From the NCBI GenBank assembly GCA_951406725.2, contig OX597815.1, positions 107,136,001-107,200,000 on the forward strand: a stretch of DNA of 64,000 nucleotides. Direction: 5' to 3'. The stretch comes from Octopus vulgaris. Lineage: Eukaryota. This document shows, piece after piece, positions 1 through 62,400 of the stretch (its first letter is position 1; each line of letters starts with the position of its first letter). The position numbers were made by a program, and so were the translations under genes. The notes beneath the pieces are model-generated. The model was not told the DNA's origin and made no database searches. It saw nothing but the letters and a program-made list of their open reading frames with translations.

Positions 1-227
1 ACATATATAAATATATATGTGTTTCCACATATTGCACACATTGACATATACATATATAAAAAAACTGAAGTGATGTAAAGTAACAAAAGAAAAAAAAGTG
101 CCTTGCTCAAAGACACTGCACTACCTAGTCCAAGAATCAAACCCAAGACTAACAATTTAGAGCTAAACAATCACTGCACCTTCATATACACTCACATATG
201 CATACACACACACATTGCATACATATA

Positions 228-258
<31 letters not shown>

Positions 259-733
259 GTGTGCATGTACAAAAATAAATGTTTGTGTTTGAAACTTCAC
301 TATTTTCAAGTTTGCAGCAAGCGGCTCCTACTTCATTGAAAGTAGTTCAATTATCAAAAAAGTGTTTTATTGGAATTTGCAGAGTGAGTGACTTCTGAAA
401 AGGACGTAAGCCTAACAGATTATTAAAATATTCTAGACACTTACAGAATGTTATTTGAATTAATAAATGGTTTACCATTTTTAGCCCAAATAGGAGCACA
501 GGAAATTGAGCAAAGACCATAAACATGATGTAACCCTTTTGCTACCATATTTCTATTAAACTACAAACTCAGTTTCAATTAATTAAATAAAATGAATTTG
601 TCATCAAGCTGATGTTTGGAACATAAATTAACATGAAATTAGATCATTTTCAAACAGGAAGTTTGTATCAAAGAAGCAAAGGCAGTCTCAAGTATAAGGG
701 TACCTAAAGAGTGAAGGGAGTAAAGTTCCTTAA

Positions 734-953
734 CCCCTTGGCATTTAAACTGGGCATATTCAGTCAAAATATTCTACCCACTTTATGTTCAGAATGGCCA
801 TATCTGGCCTTTCACACTTATTCTGCAATGTCATTCTAAAAATAAATTACCACATCAACAAAATCTTGAAGCTATGAGATAATGCATGATTAATTCAAAA
901 TAATGTGAACAAATAAAGAATACATTTACCAGAATAATCTGAATACTAAAGGG
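734..953. mobile_element. piggyBac-type MITE with TTAA target-site duplication
   Basis: TTAA at 730-733, then CCCCTTGGCATTTAAA ... CTGAATACTAAAGGG, then TTAA at 954-957. Imperfect terminal inverted repeats begin CCC. A related decayed copy lies at about 531-701. Confidence 0.7.
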
Positions 954-1219
954 TTAATAAGCAAATAAAGACAAAGGTGTTGATGGTATTCCAAAAGGAG
1001 AGCATGTGCTGTAATGAATATAGAATGCTCATCCATTTTCTATAAACAATTGTGCAAAACTGGCAAGATCCAACCCTGTTGTATATTTCGCAGCAATTAC
1101 TTTTAAAGACTACTTTGAGGGCATGCATGTATGCATGTATATATATGCTACAACTGGTAAATTATTCAACCTCAAACAGCTTAATTATAAATCATACATT
1201 TTTGTATCACTGATTAAGA

Positions 1220-1650
1220 GACCTCTTGTACACTGATGAATGAGATATTGCAGTACAAAATGGGAAAAGATCTCCAAACTCTTATGAATACAGTTTCACT
1301 GGCATGCAACATGTTAAGGTTCACAATAAATCATGACAAAACTGTTATTCATGATCAACTTTGTCTTGAGAAAATCCATGTGGATCCTAAAATTACAGTA
1401 TATAATAACACTTTAAAAAAAGTATCACTTCTAAATATTTGGAAAGCATGAAAAACACAGATGTAAATCTTAAGGGTGAAATTGCCAAAAGAATTCAGAG
1501 GTTATGGGATTCATTTTGAAAATTACAATTTTTACCATCATTTCAATATATACACAAGAAAATGACACTAATATATATTTTTTTTGTTGTATAACTGTGA
1601 AACAGAGACATTTAAGTTGATACAGAGAGGCTTCTGGCATGTTCGTTGTG
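1220..1650 (+). mobile_element. Decayed RTE-clade LINE reverse transcriptase C-terminal fragment
   Basis: ORF 1236-1451 DLQTLMNTVSLACNMLRFTINHDKTVI...PKITVYNNTLKKV resembles the RTE post-YADD region (LQ.L...F..AC..FGL.IN..KT.V). It is followed by GEIAKRIQR (the EI..RI motif). Confidence 0.65.
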
Positions 1651-1689
1651 TTTGTACATATACTGTTCTATGATTTTGTCTATTAATTT

Positions 1690-2110
1690 GTTAGAAAAGC
1701 CATTACTGATCGTCTGTTTCATTTTGTAGATATCTGTATTGAGTGCATCATTATGTGAAAGAGAATCTAAATGATGTTTTCAATGGAGATTTTACCACTG
1801 ACATTTTGTATCTGTATAAATATGGATGTGTGGTATCTGTTAGTTTTTACCTTAACATTTATGTCTAGAATTGGAATCATTGCATAGCTTGGAGTTATGT
1901 TTGTACTGTTCTGGATGCTAAATTTTAGTGAGCCTTTTAATTCTTCAGTGTCTGCTGGCATGACCATTATGATTAGTATATTGTCTGCACATTTGGGGTA
2001 TATTGTATGCTTCTCTATTTTCTATTATGGCTACAAAACCGCTGCAAATATGGGACCTAAAGTAGGACCTGCATCTCCTTGTATATATAACTTGCCTCAG
2101 GTATATTATG
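1690..2110 (-). mobile_element. Decayed Penelope-like element RT fragment
   Basis: The minus strand gives YIQGDAGPTLGPIFA (cf. Y.Q.DG.AMGSPLGP.FA), CADNILI (cf. YVDDIF) and IPILDINVKVKTNRYHTSIF (cf. IPFLDV.V....HTSVY). Confidence 0.55.
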
Positions 2111-2292
2111 ATAATAATGAAAAAAATATTAGTATCTTGTATAGCAGAAATACTCTTTGACTGTTCAACTAAACTTTTAGAGATAGTGCCTTAGTATGGA
2201 AGTAATCAAATGACTGAAACTGTTAAAAAGAATAAATGGTGTATGCTTATGTGTGTGCATACTTATATATACACATATATGTATTTACAGAC

Positions 2293-2460
2293 AGGTGCAG
2301 GTGTGGGTGTCTGGTAAAAAGTCCGCCTCCCAACCATATGGTTTTGGGTTCAGCCCCACAGCATGGCACCTTGGGCAAGTGTCTTCTACTATAACCCCAG
2401 GTCAACAAAATCCTTGCAAGTGGATTGGGAGACTAGAAGAAGCCTGTACTGTCGCCTTGT
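2293..2460 (+). mobile_element. tRNA-derived SINE (family A), CpG-decayed copy
   Basis: GGTGCAGGTGTGGGTGTCTGG...GGTTCAGCCC...CCTTGGGCAAGTGTCTTCT is homologous to the copy at 43292. Confidence 0.75.
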
Positions 2461-3489
2461 CTTGACATTACATGATTGCTATAAACAAGTGTCACCAACA
2501 TGCAAGTGCTGTCCTTCATTTTGAATCTTCTATGAAAACATGTCTGGGCACCCAGTCAGAAAATGACTCAACAAATTCCACCTGACCCATATGAATATGG
2601 AAAGTGGACATTAAAATGATGAGGACGATGAAGATAAGGATACATCAGAAATACATGTTAAAACATTTGGCAGATGCGATGCACTGTTTGGATGTAAAGT
2701 TACATAAGTCTTTAGAAATGTCTTGTTCATATTATGTTTAAGGGAAAAAAAAATATTTGTATGTGGAGAGAATATGCCATGTAGTCATTGCACTGTGGGC
2801 ATACAGGGGCAAAGCTTTGCAGGGTTTAGTCAATCAAATTTATCCCCAATACTTATTTCTAAGTTTGGTACTTATCCTATCATTCGTTTTTAGCTGAACT
2901 GTTCAGTTATGGAGATGTAAACGAACCAAAAATAGCTGTCAAGTGATGGAAGACTAAAACAAATGAGCATACACACATATGCACACAAATAACTCATACA
3001 TACACAAACATTTTCTAAACAGTTTCTATTTACAAAATTCCCTCACAAGGTATTGGCTGGTCTGAGGATATAGCAGACAACACTTTCTCAATGTACCACA
3101 CAGTGGGACAGAACTAGAAAGACATGGCTGCAAAGCAAACTTCTTGACCACACAGCTATGCCTGTACTTATACTAGTGTAACTTATTTGTAAATGCTGCA
3201 TTTTACTGAAGAACTGCACTCTGGATGAGTTGTGGGAAGTACTGTAAACATCACATCTAACTCTATCAAAAAAGAGTCTTCATTGTTGACTGATTAAGAC
3301 AGTATATGCATGTACATGTAAATGAATATCTATCTAACAGATATATAATACACACACATATCATCATTTAATGTCTGTTGTCCATGCAGGCAAGGGTTGG
3401 ATGGTTTGACTAGGCTGGCATTCTGGAAGGCTGGATGCCCTTCTTAACACCAACCACTCCAAGAGAGTAATGGGTGCTTTTTACATGCC

Positions 3490-3860
3490 ATTTGAGGATG
3501 GAACATTTTGTTAGTAATTTAATGCCAATCAGCAAGTGGCTCTTCTCTAGATGCAGTCCAGGAAATCCATGTGCATAGCAGTATCACTACCCTGAATGTG
3601 GAATAAAGCTGAATTACAAACCTCACTCTAGATTTGTAGGGTGCCAGTAACTGTTAGGAGCTGAAATGTTTTCTAACCATGATAAGGGCTAGTTTTAAGG
3701 ATGCTGTCTTATCTATGTTGAGAATGTGGAGATCCTCAGTAATAGCGAAGTTCAGTGTTTGGAGCATCCATGAGGGCTCTATTAGGAAGGAGGAGGTGCA
3801 ATAGTGTACTTGATATGAGTACTGTTTAAGTTATTTTGCAATTAATAGAAACGAGACTGG
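3490..3860 (-). mobile_element. Decayed CR1/L2-like LINE fragment
   Basis: The minus strand reads LLAPYKSRVR...DFLDCI*RRAT, like the YK..VRP.LEY / LE.IQRRATR motifs downstream of RT. Confidence 0.45.
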
Positions 3861-6104
3861 CATGCATCTCCACCTGCTACACACACACGTTGCATTTATT
3901 GTCTGCTTTTCACTATACCTTTTCATATTGCATATCCCAATCTGCCATTTTTATTCTAACATGGCACACCAATCACACTGTTACCTCTCATCATACCTTC
4001 ACTTCTTGTCCTCTTCATTCATCCTAGTTCATGTTCTGAATGTGCCTTTTGTTCTAGTTGTGATGTTTGTCATATTGCCCTAAACAAACAGAGGCAATGC
4101 AGAATAGTGGAGACATTTTTGCTTTGCAAGGCAATGTCACAAGTACTAGTATCAAGATAAAATATGCCCAAAATAAAAGTTGACAAATGCCTGGAGAAAA
4201 TAAAGGGCTAAATGGATTCTTTAGTCTTGTTCTCTTGAGGACAAAAATTGTTTCTCATGCTGGTATCATGATCAGATGCATCCAGTACATTCTGTAAAAT
4301 GGTTGGTGTTAGGAAAGGCACCTTGTTTATAGAAATCATGATGAAGATAGAACATATGCATGATACATGGTCTCCCAATCTGCCTAAGAGCACAGTAACT
4401 TCAAATGAGAACTCTCTTGGACAGTGACAACCTGTTTAACTAATACCAGCAAGGAAAACAGATGGAAATATGATTATATATTTATATATGTGTGCATGTC
4501 TATGCATGCATGTTATATATATATATATCTACCATTATTATTTTATGTTCATTTCTTGATGCTGACATAGGTTGAACAGCTTCTTCCCTCACTGGAGTCT
4601 GCACACTTGCACAGAGGAACAGAAAAAAAACTAAGCAATTTTCTTGTGCAAAACTTGGTACATTTTATCCTATAACTGGTGCTAGAGAAGTTATGTGTAA
4701 GAGGAATAAATTGTTCCTTCTAATCTGGCCTATATTGTTTCTAATCTACAGTTACTGACTTCATAAACGGACAGCTTATGATGCAGTTTAGAGTTCATGT
4801 CTAGATTTTACACATATACACTTGTCATTCTTACACCACACAACCACACAATTATTAGTGCATACAAATAACACTCACACATATACATATCATCATCATT
4901 TTATGTCTATCCTTCCATACTAGCAAGGATTATATGAAACTTATTGAAGCAGAAATTCTAAGCTAGGAAGCTCTTTCAATTACCAACCCCTACTTGTTTG
5001 TCAAGTAAGGTACTTTTATTTTACTGGTCCTCAGATATCTGCTAGGTACGGGACATTTCTTCACTAGAGAAAGTAATTAATGTCAGTTTAATTTTCAGAC
5101 AGTATCAATAAAGACTTGCAGAATCAACATTCACACATATACTCATCTATAGACATATACATATATGATAGGCTTTCATACAATCTCCATCTACTAATTC
5201 CCTTCAAAATGCATTAAATGTTCCAATGTTTTGTCTACACCTAGATACTCTAGCTGTTGCCAATCCTTCTGTATTTCCAAGCAAGGTAATATTTCCCATG
5301 GCCCAACATGTTTTCTATGGTAGACTGGAAATGAACAACATTGCTTGTATGATGGTGATATTTATTTGCAATCATCAAGTGATATCAAAACAAGGGTACA
5401 AACATACATACATATAAATATCCTTGGTGAGCTTCTTTCAGTTTCCATTCACCAAATCCACACCTAAGGCTTTGGATGGTCCAGGGCTATAGCAGAAAAC
5501 ACTTGCCCAAATGCCTTACAGTGGTACTGAACCTAAGACACACACTGTTGGAACACAAGCATACATACATCACACACATAAAAAAACCTATTTATTATGT
5601 GCAATATCATTAACATCCTCATGGCTTTTAAACCAGCTTTTTCCATACAAGAATGGGTGAGATGTGACTTCCTGAGGCAGTATCCTGTGGCCTGACAATA
5701 TTCCTGACACCAACCCTTGTTTTCAAGATGTCTTTGTTTCACAAATCTTCACATGCCAAACTGCCAAGCCTGGGACTTTTTGTTTATGCATGATATAAAC
5801 ATCACTGCAACCCAAGTCATGTCTATGGGAAGGCACACAGAAATTAACATACACACACAGACAAAAACAAGTCTTCTTTCAGTTTCCATCTACTGAATTC
5901 AGTCATGAGGCTTTGGTCAGCCAAGGGTTTTAGCATAAAACACTTACCCAAGCTATGTAGTTGGGAAACAAACTTCTCAATCATGCCTGCATATATATAC
6001 ACAAACACACATATATATACAATAAGCTTCTTTACAGTTTCTAACAATCCAACAGGGAATCTATCACCAATGTATAGATTTAACATGTATATATACATAT
6101 ATCA

Positions 6105-6500
6105 TCTTTTAGTTGTTTCAGTCATTAGACTGTGGCCATGCTAGGGCACCATCATGAAGAATTTTTAGTCAAAAGAATCAATTACAGAACTATTTTTTAA
6201 AGCATGGAACTTATTCTATTGTTCTCTTTTGCCAAACTGCCAAGTTATGGGTAGATAACACTAACACTGGTTGTCAAGTGGTGGCAGATAATAAATACAA
6301 ACACAAAGACACACACACACACACACATATTTATGATGGGCTTCTTTCAGTTTCCATCTACCAAACCCACTCACAAGGCTTTGGTCAGCCTGAGACAATA
6401 TTAAAAGGCACGTACCCAAGGTGCCACACAGTGAAACTGAAACAGGAACCATGTGGTTGGGAAGCAAGTTTCTTACCATACAGCCATGCCTGTACCTATA
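6105..6500 (-). mobile_element. SINE family A copy with shared 3' tail
   Basis: TTTCAGTCATTAGACTGTGGCCATGCTAGGGCACC tail plus the reverse complement of the tRNA-like head. Other decayed copies lie at about 2800-3170, 5430-5560 and 5870-5990. Confidence 0.75.
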
Positions 6501-7809
6501 TATATATGTATGTAAGAATATGTGTGTGTGTGCATGCATGTTGACATTCTATGGCTTTGCAATTGTGTGTATACCTGATAAAATAGCAATGTGATACACA
6601 TGATAGCAAAGCTATAGAATGTCAACATTCTATGATGATTTAATCAGTTCCTTTGCATGTCTCTTACTTGAAAAACAAGTGAGGGTTGATGACAGAAAGA
6701 GCATCTGGACATAAAATCCTATCTGAAATAAGTCATGGTTCACCCCATGCATGCAGGACAACAGGCATGAAATGAAGTTTATATGTACAATATATACCGT
6801 ACACAAATATACATACTATTATTACTTGTATGATGCAAGAAATCTAAAAAAAAAAAAACAAATAAAAAATCAGTGTCAAAATTTAGAGAATGGAATATCA
6901 TAAAGAGAGAAAATTTTTTATACAATTGACTAGAGACTTATAGAGTGGAATATTTTTATTAAAAATTAAATGCAGCACAAAGTTGAACATTGCCACCTAG
7001 TTCTTGGATATACATACACCTTCTTACAAGAATTTGGACAAGGTCTTTGATCTCAACTTAACTTTCCTTCAACTGAGAAGTCTTTTTTCAATATACAACT
7101 AACTGCAGTATCTTTTACACACACACACACACATATATATTTCATTTGTTGATGATGACTTGGTTGTTTGAATAACAGAATTTCCTACTGTATTAACATG
7201 TAAGTGGCTGAGCATTCCATGGGTATATGTATCCTTAACATAATTATCAGGTAGAATCATTATGGCATAGAGTGTGAGAAGACTGTACCTTTTGACCTAT
7301 GGGTTCAACTCACCCGACAAATGTTTACAGTTTCCATTGACCCAATTTTACTCACAAGATATAAGTTGGCCTAAGCCTATGGAAAATGATATTCGCCCAA
7401 GATGTCAAGCGGAGAGAGTAAACACAAGACTTTTTGGTTGTGAAACAAATTGTTTAACCTTTTACCATACTGCACCTACAAAATATACATAATGCATACG
7501 TAAACCATGTAATGAATTCCTATACCCTCTCTTTATTTATATATCATCCTCATCATCACTTAGCGTCCGCTTTCCATGCTAGCATGGGTTGGACGGTTCA
7601 ACTGGAGTCATATATATATATATATATATATTTCCATACTGGCACTGGTTGGACAGTTTGATAGGAAACAACCCAGAGGATGACGTCAAGATCCAATGTC
7701 TGCTGTGGCATAGTTTCTATGATATGATGTCCTAACACCAACCACTTTACAAAATGTATGGGTCTTTTTAGTAGCACCAGCATTAAGTTCAAAGACAAGA
7801 CCCTTAAAG

Positions 7810-8915
<1,106 letters not shown>

Positions 8916-27183: not shown

Positions 27184-27241
<58 letters not shown>

Positions 27242-27885
27242 GAGTGAAAGAGCAGTGCATGCCATCAAAGTGACACTGGGGTTAAGGTCAAACAACTGAC
27301 CAGCAAATATGTGGTATTGAGCAATATACGAAGCCCATTATACCCATCATAACTATCCGTCTGATAAGTGTACACTAGGCACATGCATCAAAACCATGTG
27401 CGTGACATGGTGATCTCATATCAAGATAAACAGTGCATGACCTTGCAGGTGGGGTCCAATTAGAATTTTCTTCTGGTCGAGTAGCCCATCCCGCTCAAAA
27501 GGTCCCTGAATAAGGGTTGTTTAAGGATGTTGAACGAAACACCCATTTTTCAAGCCCCAAAGAATCCCTCTCAACACATGACTATGATGCTCCCCCACTA
27601 CTTCTGCTCGTGGTCAGAGATGCACATATCGTCAGCCACTAAGGGACATGCTCAACTGGTTATGGTCAAACAACTGACACGCAAATCTGTGGTATTGAGC
27701 AGAATATTTGCTGTAGCCCATCTTTTATACCAAGACAAAACAATGTACATGATAACACTTCCAATCAGTTAAGATCAGAAGCCATGAGAGCCACTGCCTG
27801 GTACTGCATCAGGGCAAGCCACTAAGGGACATGCTCAACTGGTTAAGGTCAAACAACTGACCAGCAAATATGTGGTATTGAGCAA
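27242..27885 (-). mobile_element. (TAA)n-associated retroelement 3' segment, copy 1
   Basis: Reverse complement of 28958-29432. Its 3' end ...CTTTCACTC abuts the TAA/TTA array. Confidence 0.75.
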
Positions 27886-27984
27886 TTATTATTCGGTGTT
27901 GAGCTGGCAGAATTGTTAGCACGCCGGGCAAAATGATTAGCAGTACTTCCCAAAATATCAGGCCTTGTGTCTATAGTAGAAATG

Positions 27985-28026
<42 letters not shown>

Positions 28027-28124
28027 GAATGAGGAATGAAATCGCTCTCAGAGGTTAAATGGAAGAAATAATGATGGTGATGATGATGATGATAACAACA
28101 ACAACAACAACAATAATAATAATG

Positions 28125-28179
<55 letters not shown>

Positions 28180-28182
28180 GAG

Positions 28183-28587
28183 TACACCTTAACTAGTTGA
28201 GCATGTCCCTTAGTGGCTGACGATATGTGCATCTCTGATCACGAGAAGTAGTGGGGGAGCATCATAGCCATGTATTGAGAGGGATTCTTTGGGGTTTGAA
28301 TAATTCACGTCTGGAAACATGGGCGTTTCGTTTAAAATCCTTAAACGATCCTTATTCAGGGACCTTTTGAGTGGGATGGGCTACTCGACATGAAGAAAAT
28401 TCTAACTGGGCCCCACCTGCAAGGTCATGCGCTGTTTATCTTGATATGAGATCACAATGTCGCGCACATATGGTTGTGATGCATGTGCCTGGTGTACCCA
28501 TATCAGACGGGTAGTCATGATGGGTATACTGGGCTTCATATATTTTACCCCAGTGTCACTTTGATGGCATGCACTGCTCACTCACTC
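28183..28587 (+). mobile_element. (TAA)n-associated retroelement 3' segment, copy 2
   Basis: Highly similar to copies 1 and 3, with a different 5' truncation point and TAA on both sides. Confidence 0.75.
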
Positions 28588-28869
28588 AATAATAATAATA
28601 ATAATGATTTCAATTTTTTGCCACAAGGGCATCTTGTGGGGAGGGGAGATTAAGTCAATTACATCGATCTAGTGCGCAACTGGTACTTATTTAATCGACG
28701 TCGAAAGGATGAAAGGCAAAATCGATCTAGGCGGAATTTGAACTGAGTTTGAATTTGAACTGAATTTGGACTGAAGTGACCGCCTTAATAATAATAATAT
28801 GGGATCCATAATGGATATGCTCTCTCACTCAATGATGATGATAATAATAACAACAACAACAACAACAAC

Positions 28870-28915
<46 letters not shown>

Positions 28916-28956
28916 TGCTCTCACATTCATTGATGATAATAACAATAATAATAATA

Positions 28957-29432
28957 GTCTTGGTATAAAAGATGGGCTACAGCAAATATTCTGCTCAATA
29001 CCACAGATTTGCTTGTCAGTTGTTTGACCTTAACCAGTTGAGCATGTCCCTTAGTGGCTGACGATATGTGCACCTCTGATCACGAGCAGAAGTAGTGGGG
29101 GAGCATCATAGCCATGTGTTGAGAGGGATTCTTTGGGGTTTGAATAGTTCACCTCTGGAAACATGGGTGGTTCTTTCAACATCCTTAAACAACCCTTATT
29201 CAGGGACCGTTTGAGCGGGATGGGCTACTCAACCTGAAGAAAATTCTAACTGAGCCCCACCTGCAAGGTCATGTGCTGTTTATCTTGATATGAGATCACC
29301 ATGTCGCGCACATATGGTTGTGATGCATGTGCCTTGGTGTACCTTTATCAGACGGGTAGTCATGATGGGTATATTGGGCTACGTATATTTTACCCCAGTG
29401 TCACTTTGATGGCATGAACTGCTCTCTCACTC
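28957..29432 (+). mobile_element. (TAA)n-associated retroelement 3' segment, copy 3
   Basis: Ends GCTCTCTCACTC-AATAATAA, with TAA repeats on the 5' side. Confidence 0.75.
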
Positions 29433-29465
<33 letters not shown>

Positions 29466-29785
29466 AATAATTTTCATCACAACCACTGTCATCATCGTCG
29501 TCGTCGTCGTCATCATTGTCATCATCGTCTTCCTCCTCCTCCTCCTCCTCCTCCTCCTCATCATCATCATCATCATCATCATCATCACCATCACCATCAT
29601 TGTCATCGTTGTCGTTTTTGTCATTGCAGATACTTTTACTGTTGTTATTGCTATTGTTGTCACTGATATTATTATTTGTAAAGCACTCCATTCAACAATT
29701 TTAATTCATTTTATGCTTATCCAGTCGACATTCTTGTTTTCCCGTTAGCAAGTCGCTGTTACTACAGCTGCTGCTGCTGCTGCTG

Positions 29786-58932: not shown

Positions 58933-59440
58933 CAGCTGGATGCCCTTCCTAACACCAACCACTCAGAGAGTGTAGTGGGTGCTTTTTATGTGCCACATGC
59001 ACAAGAGCCAGTCAGATCACATTCAGATGGTGCTTTTTACATACCACCGGCATGGAAGCCAGTCTAGGGGTACTGGCATCAGCCACGTTCGGTTGGTGCT
59101 TTTTACGTGCCACTGATATGGGAGCCAGTCAGGCAGACTTGGCATCGACCATGTTCGGATGGTGCTTTTTACATGCCACTGGCACAGAAGCCAGTCAAGG
59201 GGCACTGGCCACAGCTACAATATTGGTTTTATTTGACTCAACAGGTCTTCTCAAGCATATCATATCGCCCGATGCATAAGGGCTGGACATGCATAGCTGC
59301 GATCTCACATTAGTTGCCAGGTCTTCTTAATCACAGCATATCTCCAAAGGTCCTGGTCGCCTGTCATTGCCTCTGTGAGGCCCAATGTTCAAAGGCCATG
59401 CTTTGCCACCTCATCCCATGTCTTCCTGGGTCTACCTCTA
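58933..59440 (-). mobile_element. RTE-like LINE 3' end with internal ~60-bp tandem repeats
   Basis: Minus-strand RGRPRKTWDEV (RTE C-terminal motif) and four GGTGCTTTTTAC-starting units. Related tails lie at about 3360-3490, 7550-7790 and 60815-60872. Confidence 0.7.
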
Positions 59441-60871: not shown

Positions 60872-60917
<46 letters not shown>

Positions 60918-61239
60918 TACATATACATATATATATGTATGTATATCTACATACATATATATAAATGTATGTATAGGTTTATATATATATATATAATATA
61001 TATATATACAATAGAAATATTAAAATTACTAAGTCTCTCTAAAAGAGAACAACGGCAGCGTCCCCGGAAAATATTAGTTATCGCCATACTAATATGGCAT
61101 TCTTATAAAAATAAGAATAAAGCTGTCCGCTTATTAGCTCCATGAGGCCATCGCCTTAAGTTAGCTATTTGATACACAAACTGTATCCATATAACCTTTG
61201 AACAAGGGAGGTCAGTCGCTCCACACTACTTGGCCGGCA

Positions 61240-61281
61240 GCTACAGACGCGTTTCGGGGTATTGCCCCTTTTCAATGCAGC
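61240..61281 (-). ncRNA. Minimal type I hammerhead ribozyme, U3-A8 variant (inverted copy)
   Basis: Exact reverse complement of 61709-61750. Confidence 0.75.
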
Positions 61282-61708
61282 GTAGCCAGACCAGTAGGTG
61301 TCGCTTCTGACAATCTCTGTTCAAAGGTTTTATTTACCTAGCTTCGGTGGAATACATCCACTTGTTTTCAATAAACGCGTCTGTAGCTGCCGGCCAAGTA
61401 GTGTGGAGCGACTGACCTCCCTTGTTCAAAGGTTATATGGATACAGTTTGTGTATCAAATAGCTAACTTAAGGCGATGGCCTCATGGAGCTAATAAGCGG
61501 ACAGCTTTATTCTTATTTTTATAAGAATGCCATATTAGTATGGCGATAACTAATATTTTCCAGGAACGCTGCCGTTGTTCTCTTTTAGAGAGACTTAGTA
61601 ATTTTAATATTTCTATTATTGAAAACAAGTGGATGTATTCCACCGAAGCTAGGTAAATAAAACCTTTGAACAGAGATTGTCAGAAGCGACACCTACTGGT
61701 CTGGCTAC

Positions 61709-61750
61709 GCTGCATTGAAAAGGGGCAATACCCCGAAACGCGTCTGTAGC
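61709..61750 (+). ncRNA. Minimal type I hammerhead ribozyme, U3-A8 variant
   Basis: GCUGCA UUGAAAA GGGG CAAUA CCCC GAAA C GC G UC UGUAGC. Stem I is 6 bp, stem II is 4 bp with G10.1-C11.1, loop 3 is the palindrome ACGCGU, and the cleavage site is GUC. Confidence 0.78.
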
Positions 61751-61915
61751 TGCCGGCCAAGTAGTGTGGAGCGACTGACCTCCCTTGTTCAAAGGTTATA
61801 TGGATACAGTTTGTGTATCAAATAGCTAACTTAAGGCGATGGCCTCATGGAGCTAATAAGCGGACAGCTTTATTCTTATTTTTATAAGAATGCCATATTA
61901 GTATGGCGATAACTA

Positions 61916-61918
<3 letters not shown>

Positions 61919-61950
<32 letters not shown>

Positions 61951-61972
61951 CATACATATACATACATTTATA

Positions 61973-62030
<58 letters not shown>

Positions 62031-62048
62031 CATATATATAAATGTATA

Positions 62049-62092
<44 letters not shown>

Positions 62093-62400
62093 CATTTATA
62101 TATATGTATGTATATATACATACATATATATATGTGTATGTATATATATATATATATATATACATATATACATACATTTATATATATGTATGTATATATA
62201 TATACATATATATATGTGTATGTATATATATATATATACATATATATACATATATATATATATATATTATATACATACATATATATATGTATATACACAT
62301 ACATACATACATATATATATATGTGTGTGTGTGTGTTTGTGTTTGCATGTGTGTGTGTTTGTGTTTGCGTGTGTGTGTGCGCGTATGTGTAGGTATGTCT
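61919..62400. repeat. Degenerate (TA)/(CA)/(TG) microsatellite
   Basis: Seen directly. Confidence 0.93.

What the first reader, a model, noticed from the sequence alone, without database searches (positions are those of the whole stretch)
61010..61918. Candidate cephalopod retrozyme: 363-nt HHR-bearing unit in tandem and inverted array
Seen: a non-coding 363-nt unit present as one full inverted monomer plus 1.5 direct copies. The copies are nearly identical and keep their CpGs inside a CpG-decayed domain, so the insertion is young. The inversion junction (61373/61374) falls inside the ribozyme, 8 nt before the cleavage site. Known: metazoan non-LTR retrozymes are short tandem units with type I HHRs that give circular RNAs and are thought to use Penelope RT, and Penelope insertions often carry an inverted 5' LTR. 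Inference: an active viroid-like retroelement family, with Penelope RT relics in this window (1.7-2.1 kb and 33.9-35.4 kb) representing the likely helper class. I cannot tell whether this family has been described.
Basis: partly seen in the sequence, partly recalled or inferred. Interest (0 to 1): 0.85.

Follow-up and report, generated by a model that had tools for sequence, protein, structure and literature searches.

The report
Penelope-hijacking ribozyme repeat in octopus
This is one of over a thousand insertions of a young, non-coding 363-base repeat that carries a predicted self-cutting RNA motif; its insertions have the shape made by Penelope-type jumping genes, and its copy pattern suggests it is likely copied from a small RNA circle, which makes it a new member of a known class and a good test case for how that class spreads.

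Summary
In detail: an inverted arm (61010-61374, 1.0 unit) meets a direct arm (61373-61919, 1.5 units) of a 363-nt unit, each with an intact type I hammerhead (HHR) of the U3-A8 variant. Genome G000 holds 856 exact copies of this HHR, 955 exact head-to-tail joins and two further subfamilies with compensatory changes. In 63 loci taken in genome order, 42 are head-to-head. In 37 of these one arm ends at unit position 363 and the other at 300, and 86 of 95 such ends lie in (TA)n. This is the Penelope-like element (PLE) tail signature. An intact Neptune-type PLE in the same genome follows the same rule (7 of 7). No unit serves as the pLTR of an ORF. Marker variants are shared by 97% of unit pairs within an insertion, across both arms, against 29% between insertions, which points to copying from one monomer, likely a circle. 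The junction's place in the HHR is chance, and the window's relics are not the helper. Cleavage, circles, expression and the helper remain unshown. Verdict: new member of a known kind (non-LTR retrozyme).

The parts
61010..61374 (-). Left arm, 1.01 units; its 3' end is the long start site (unit position 361-363) and faces the (TA)n tract on the left
61373..61919 (+). Right arm, 1.51 units; starts at unit position 117 and ends at the short start site (position 300), facing (TA)n
61373..61374 (.). Head-to-head junction with 2 shared bases; 28 of 42 head-to-head loci share 2-6 bases by BLAST overlap
61709..61750 (+). Type I hammerhead, U3-A8 core; predicted cleavage at 61744/61745
   Evidence: stems I and II have pair probability 0.94-0.99 in the circular fold
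61240..61281 (-). Second complete hammerhead, in the left arm; predicted cleavage at 61246/61245
61557..61619 (+). 63-nt 'tail' between the short (unit 300) and long (unit 363) start sites
61619..61620 (+). Head-to-tail join between units; 955 exact copies of a 33-nt pattern across this join in G000
61659..61799 (+). Long predicted stem that extends HHR stem I and would hold the ends of a cleaved monomer together
60876..61009 (.). Left (TA)n-rich target tract
61920..62320 (.). Right (TA)n-rich target tract

Best explanation
This is one insertion of a non-coding, non-autonomous retroelement family (a non-LTR retrozyme) that is likely moved by the protein of a Neptune-type Penelope-like element, likely copying from a 363-nt RNA circle that its hammerhead would release from a tandem transcript. 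Shown: the unit, its arrays, two fixed 3' ends 63 nt apart, head-to-head arms with one end of each kind, (TA)n targets, and one haplotype per insertion. Inferred steps: (1) a tandem copy is transcribed; (2) two hammerheads pair through the ACGCGU palindrome and cut out a monomer, which is ligated to a circle; (3) the PLE protein nicks both strands of a (TA)n target; (4) each nick primes reverse transcription internally, one at position 363 and the other at position 300; (5) each cDNA runs round the template for 0.1 to 8 units; (6) the two cDNA ends join through 2-6 shared bases. This gives the head-to-head array and regenerates multimers.
For: Ends and geometry: 42 of 63 genome-order loci are head-to-head; 37 of the 42 pair a long with a short end, and 0 pair like with like. 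In the 39 best-match loci, 35 are head-to-head, 30 long/short and 1 long/long (7 loci overlap the first set). 86 of 95 defined ends abut (TA)n. 4 of 10 loci with non-TA flanks show 11-17 nt shared on both sides, as a target duplication would. PMC11167929 (main text read) shows a PLE protein that nicks both strands at AT-rich DNA and starts at two internal sites that define the tail. PMC8557442 (passages) describes inverted 5' copies, a tail on one end only and microsatellite bias. Helper class present: 16 of 148 GIY-YIG matches lie in a 781-codon open frame, with RT and GIY-YIG domains and a CX4CX2C linker. This family ends in (TA)n at two sites about 35 nt apart and is long/short in 7 of 7 head-to-head loci among 34 (3 by the script's windows, 4 read by eye). 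Its HHR has the same U3-A8 core and a palindrome. HHR under selection: core intact in 85 of 88 units; across three subfamilies only the free position 7 of the core varies (A, U, C), and stem II and the palindrome change in step; 7 of 75 pairs change on both sides, against 0-2 in slid controls. Monomer bottleneck: non-CpG markers found in 3 or more loci are shared by 368 of 377 unit pairs within an arm, 300 of 308 across arms and 13544 of 46867 between loci; variants private to one locus are shared by 16 of 97 within an arm and 18 of 122 across arms. 59 of 74 arms run through at least one cleavage site, with no insertion or deletion at positions 123-132.
Against: No circle, cleavage or transcript is shown. 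No helper with shared sequence was found: the unit matches no pLTR in 50 PLE loci or in 19 loci of another family. The 63-nt tail is longer than the 30-40 nt reported for PLEs and the roughly 35 nt of the candidate family. In PMC11167929, HHR mutants did not affect insertion and uncleaved RNA was the main substrate. In the 2026 preprint only 1 of 9 retrozyme dimers cleaved in vitro. A homogeneous 8.5-unit array exists (L227), so long linear transcripts are possible, and gene conversion between units or arms could also homogenise them. The covariation rests on three subfamilies only (34 of 500 shuffles reach 7 pairs). 20 of 63 loci have a single arm.
Confidence: 0.68

Rival explanations
1. Same non-autonomous PLE-driven family, but the template is an uncleaved linear multimer transcribed from a few homogeneous source arrays; the hammerhead is weak or only trims the RNA.
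For: Uncleaved RNA is the main substrate of the anole PLE in vitro (PMC11167929). An 8.5-unit homogeneous array exists. Most arms are under 4 units, shorter than such a source.
Against: Markers are nested and present in essentially all units of a locus. A mutation that arises in one unit must therefore be amplified to all units again and again, while random 5' truncation would only shorten arrays. The HHR and the long closing stem are conserved across three subfamilies.
Confidence: 0.2
2. The template is the cleaved linear monomer, and the RT makes multimers by jumping from its 5' end to a 3' end.
For: It also gives a monomer bottleneck. 6 of 104 arm 5' ends in the genome-order set lie at positions 122-130 (expected 2.6, P = 0.047).
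Against: 0 of 62 in the other set and 6 of 166 overall (expected 4.1, P = 0.23). No indels at the cleavage site. Units of an arm do not mix haplotypes, as jumps between molecules would cause.
Confidence: 0.06
3. The unit is only the pLTR of an autonomous Penelope element, and the loci are 5'-truncated insertions of it.
For: The geometry is that of truncated PLE insertions. One locus (L212) has a PLE ORF in line, 5' of a unit arm.
Against: 955 exact head-to-tail joins with no ORF between units. PLE ORF fragments lie near 4 of 68 and 3 of 63 loci: all are tail-to-tail or beyond the TA tract except L212. In L212 the ORF is cut inside the endonuclease and belongs to a family whose own 3' region is unrelated to the unit.
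Confidence: 0.04
4. The inverted array is an assembly artefact (fold-back reads) or a local satellite.
For: No listed short-read contig bridges this locus's own junction (the list was cut).
Against: Arms end at two different fixed sites and overlap asymmetrically at dozens of loci on many contigs. Contigs of independent runs show the same TA ends and other head-to-head junctions.
Confidence: 0.02

Closest known systems
Metazoan non-LTR retrozymes (Cervera and de la Pena 2020, PMC7229834; passages seen), e.g. the 350-390 bp Mytilus repeats
   Same: Short (150-450 bp), non-coding, under 45% GC (here 41%), tandem units each with a type I HHR, stable predicted fold; proposed circRNA template and PLE helper.
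   Different: U3-A8 core with a dimer-type palindrome. The passages seen do not describe head-to-head arms, fixed start sites or (TA)n targeting, and 'inverted' and 'cephalopod' do not occur in that text. Circles were shown there, not here.
Retrozymes as non-autonomous PLE derivatives (Li, Clavereau, Pollet 2026, 10.64898/2026.07.22.740005; parts 1-3 of 5 read, supplements not seen)
   Same: Same conclusion: HHR tandem units that depend on PLEs.
   Different: It rests on co-occurrence and pLTR homology in 35 genomes (vertebrates, insects, a coral). Here the link comes from the integration signature, and no pLTR homology was found.
Neptune-type PLEs and the Poseidon element PAc (PMC8557442, passages; PMC11167929, main text; PMC3846280, passages)
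   Same: Head-to-head inverted 5' copy, tail on one end only, two internal RT start sites, AT-rich or microsatellite targets, microhomology at 5' junctions, TSD near 10 bp.
   Different: No ORF; unit-length head-to-tail multimers; tail of about 60-63 nt instead of 30-40.
Non-autonomous Chlamys elements such as MRC1 (PMC8557442, passage)
   Same: Non-autonomous PLEs with multicopy head-to-tail insertions.
   Different: Those share 3' sequence with their autonomous family, and most Chlamys lack canonical HHRs.
U3-A8 HHR variant of Schistosoma Cercyon PLEs (PMC4209133, section 5 read)
   Same: Same core covariation, in a PLE context.
   Different: Described as mostly single, heterogeneous motifs; here it sits in conserved 363-nt multimers.

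Membership tests
Non-LTR retrozyme | Short non-coding unit (150-450 bp, low GC) in tandem copies | tested here: met
   363 nt, GC 0.41; arrays up to 8.5 units; 955 exact joins
Non-LTR retrozyme | Type I HHR in every unit | tested here: met
   Motif and stems; core intact in 85 of 88 units. The variant core is known from PLEs; Rfam does not detect it.
Non-LTR retrozyme | No LTR flanking a central region, no ORF | tested here: met
   No ORF between units; PBS and PPT were not searched separately
Non-LTR retrozyme | Self-cleavage in vitro | not testable with these tools
   Only the predicted dimer pairing
Non-LTR retrozyme | Expressed as monomeric circular RNA | tested here: inconclusive
   No raw RNA reads available; the genomic haplotype pattern is indirect support
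PLE-mobilised element | Two 3' ends defining a tail, on one end of the insertion | tested here: met
   37 of 42 head-to-head loci are long/short
PLE-mobilised element | Head-to-head inverted, 5'-truncated arm | tested here: met
   42 of 63 loci
PLE-mobilised element | Microsatellite or AT-rich target, TSD near 10 bp | tested here: met
   86 of 95 ends in (TA)n; TSD-like words in 4 of 10 non-TA loci
PLE-mobilised element | Sequence shared with the pLTR of an autonomous partner | tested here: inconclusive
   None found in 69 PLE loci from about ten families; only 150 of 6136 GIY-YIG candidates were scored
Autonomous PLE | RT-GIY-YIG ORF between pLTRs | tested here: not met
Viroid-like RNA | RNA-to-RNA replication, both polarities | not testable with these tools
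   One HHR polarity only; the plus strand folds better than the minus strand

The most novel reading that the evidence does not exclude
The family is a genomic record of rolling-circle, twin-primed retrotransposition. A dimeric Penelope protein copies one RNA circle from both target nicks, each half bound to its own start site. The circle has no pLTR homology left to its helper and mimics only the start-site motifs and the ribozyme type. The long/short rule would then be the general explanation of Penelope inverted repeats and tails.
Probability: 0.4. Interest if true: 0.72.

Novelty: new member of a known kind. Interest (0 to 1): 0.52.

Why it matters
How PLEs make tandem and inverted insertions, and whether retrozyme circles are real transposition templates, are open questions in the papers read (PMC8557442, PMC11167929, PMC7229834, the 2026 preprint). 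This family gives more than a thousand young insertions of a 363-nt substrate, three subfamilies and intact candidate helpers in one genome. That makes both questions testable with an in vitro assay that already exists. The class itself is known. My library searches found no cephalopod retrozyme and no twin-priming account of PLE inversions. Most subscription papers, Repbase and the consensus library of PMC13282606 were not seen, so the family may already be catalogued as a repeat.

Tried and rejected
Rfam: no hit. RNA evidence: no RNA holder listed (19 of 24 runs hold half or more of the words, none on record as RNA). Contigs of 5 runs guessed to be RNA cover the unit, one with the 363-back joint, but contigs cannot tell a circle from a multimer or from DNA, so this is not used as evidence. 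Window relics: no Pfam hit apart from one weak unrelated match, no tblastn hit to helper families A or B and no hit to a 62-sequence PLE profile. Relic 1 matches 4 other decayed loci weakly, one of which scores on the PLE profile at E 3e-9. A wider HMMER search with relic 1 was still queued at the end and gave no result. Helper search: GIY-YIG scan, 20 extended loci, and a follow-up of the in-line ORF at L212 found no parent; part of the output was cut. Enrichment of 5' ends at the cleavage site: not significant. The deletion tally was invalid by construction and was redone. Earlier findings of this scan: three look-ups, nothing returned. The paper on dimer-cleaving PLE hammerheads (PMC5785218) was not available. 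Insertion polymorphism, promoter location and a genome-wide count of short ends were not tested.

Full report
Observation. The element spans 61010-61919 between two (TA)n-rich tracts. It has a left arm on the minus strand (1.01 units) and a right arm on the plus strand (1.51 units) of a 363-nt unit; the arms share 2 bases and differ at 2 positions. I number the unit from window 61620 (position 1) round to 61619 (position 363). The monomer folds far better than shuffles (z = -7.9; z = -9.3 as a circle). Two complete type I hammerheads lie at 61709-61750 (+) and 61240-61281 (-). The core is UUGAAAA, with U3-A8 in place of C3-G8, a variant described in schistosome PLEs (PMC4209133, section 5). 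Stem III is replaced by the palindrome ACGCGU, which pairs between two copies in a co-fold; this is the dimer arrangement described for PLE hammerheads. Rfam does not detect it.

The family. G000 is 2.8 Gb in 227 contigs; an octopus host is my inference from size, about 30 large contigs and the repeat landscape. The unit gave 1154 candidate places, of which 40 were scored, with full-length copies at 98-100% identity. Whole-genome exact counts are 856 for the 38-nt HHR, 1008 for the long end followed by TA and 955 for the head-to-tail join; the last two patterns also cover the sister subfamilies. Subfamily 2 (360-362 nt, 82% identical, 2724 candidates) and subfamily 3 (364 nt) keep the same join and the same two ends. 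Across the three, position 7 of the core is A, U or C while the other core bases are fixed. Stem II and the palindrome change together in subfamily 2, and 7 of 75 predicted pairs change on both sides, against 0-2 in slid controls (only three lineages, and 34 of 500 shuffles reach 7).

Insertion geometry. To avoid picking only close copies, I took all 63 insertions behind the first 100 exact HHR matches in genome order; this set still requires an intact HHR. 42 are head-to-head, 20 have one arm and 1 is complex. Of the 42, 37 have one arm ending at about 363 and the other at about 300, 5 have one end elsewhere, and none has two like ends. The 39 best-match loci give 35 head-to-head, of which 30 long/short and 1 long/long (7 loci shared with the other set). 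In subfamily 2, 9 of 14 head-to-head loci among 29 are long/short, and 13 loci are single arms with the long end. 86 of 95 defined ends abut (TA)n, and 28 of 42 junctions share 2-6 bases. 4 of 10 loci with non-TA flanks show an 11-17 nt word on both sides. 5' ends are spread over the unit, with a hot spot at 163-170 (18 of 166, expected 3.7), near the 3' foot of the long stem, and no significant excess at the cleavage site (6 of 166, expected 4.1). The window's junction inside the HHR is therefore chance. This geometry is the PLE signature: an inverted 5'-truncated copy, a tail on one end only, and microsatellite bias (PMC8557442, passages; PMC3846280, passages). The anole PLE protein nicks both strands and starts at two internal sites that delimit the tail (PMC11167929).

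Not a pLTR of a full-length element. Units follow each other directly, up to 8.5 in a row. PLE ORF fragments lie within the fetched flanks of 4 of 68 and 3 of 63 loci, all tail-to-tail or beyond the TA tract except L212. There the ORF is cut inside its endonuclease and belongs to a family whose 3' region is unrelated to the unit; it may be a template switch or a deletion.

Helper. A GIY-YIG search gave 6136 candidates; 150 were scored, and 16 of the 148 matches sit in a 781-codon frame. This family A encodes RT and GIY-YIG (the RT score is just under Pfam's cut-off) with a CX4CX2C linker, the motif given for Neptune. It ends in (TA)n at two sites about 35 nt apart, and 7 of 7 head-to-head loci among 34 pair a long with a short end (3 by script, 4 by eye). 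Its long and short ends finish in CTATTAT and AATAT, like the unit's, and its HHR has the U3-A8 core and a palindrome. Beyond this there is no nucleotide similarity to the unit in 50 + 19 PLE loci, so family A is a candidate, not an identified partner. The window's relics are decayed: relic 1 is indirectly PLE-like, and relic 2 was not confirmed.

Template. Most arms run through one or more cleavage sites (59 of 74), so the template was a circle or an uncleaved multimer. Each insertion carries one haplotype: non-CpG markers are shared in 368 of 377 unit pairs within an arm, 300 of 308 across arms and 29% between loci. Variants private to a locus are shared about equally within (16 of 97) and across (18 of 122) arms. 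Both arms were thus made from one source, and the multimers are unlikely to be local expansions after insertion. The markers are nested (for example 245T, then 82T, then 63G), so new mutations repeatedly spread from one unit to all units. Rolling-circle reverse transcription of a monomer circle explains this simply, and it matches the model of PMC7229834 (passage). Homogeneous source arrays or gene conversion cannot be excluded, and two papers report weak or dispensable cleavage.

Comparison and verdict. The element meets the sequence criteria of a non-LTR retrozyme and the insertion criteria of a PLE-mobilised element; cleavage and circles are untested. The idea that such units are non-autonomous PLE derivatives is in print (10.64898/2026.07.22.740005). 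A 2026 octopus repeat annotation lists 30 recently active Penelope families (PMC13282606, parts 1-2 of 3; its library was not seen). What this locus adds is a cephalopod family, a strict one-start-site-per-arm rule shared with an intact Neptune-type element, and genomic evidence of a monomer bottleneck. New member of a known kind; interest 0.52.

Noticed in passing
L069:768-4468, L066:430-5672 (family A): An intact Neptune-type PLE with a second, upstream ORF of about 466 aa that overlaps the RT ORF and has no Pfam family; canonical PLEs have a single ORF.
   Followed up: partly
L134:2232-3678 and L135:2537-3982: Two insertions on different contigs with the same junction (78/227) and the same arm lengths (3.79 and 0.20 units), but different haplotypes and unrelated flanks; unexplained.
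   Followed up: partly
L212:1820-3960: A unit arm fused in line to the endonuclease region of a C-rich PLE family (889 candidates, 97-98% identical) with long CA-rich 3' sequence; template switch or deletion.
   Followed up: yes
L227:945-3914: A short arm followed by an 8.5-unit array whose units share about a dozen variants; a possible source locus.
   Followed up: partly
L024, L043, L052, L054, L067: Several distinct autonomous PLE families in G000 use U3-A8 hammerheads with palindromes (ACATGT or ACCGGT), which canonical HHR searches would miss.
   Followed up: partly
L024, L086, L114, L132: Units inserted tail-to-tail into the (TA)n tract at the 3' end of autonomous PLE copies, showing a shared target.
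   Followed up: partly
unit positions 163-170 (window 61782-61789): Hot spot of arm 5' ends near the foot of the long stem, likely an RT stop.
   Followed up: partly
window 58975-59218: Three to four diverged copies of a 66-nt unit.
   Followed up: no
window 27203-29471: A 550-nt inverted repeat at 84% identity with an inner 420-nt repeat at 93%.
   Followed up: no
window 1-8000: Strong CpG depletion (o/e 0.12) against 0.86 at 12-52 kb, suggesting a methylation boundary.
   Followed up: no
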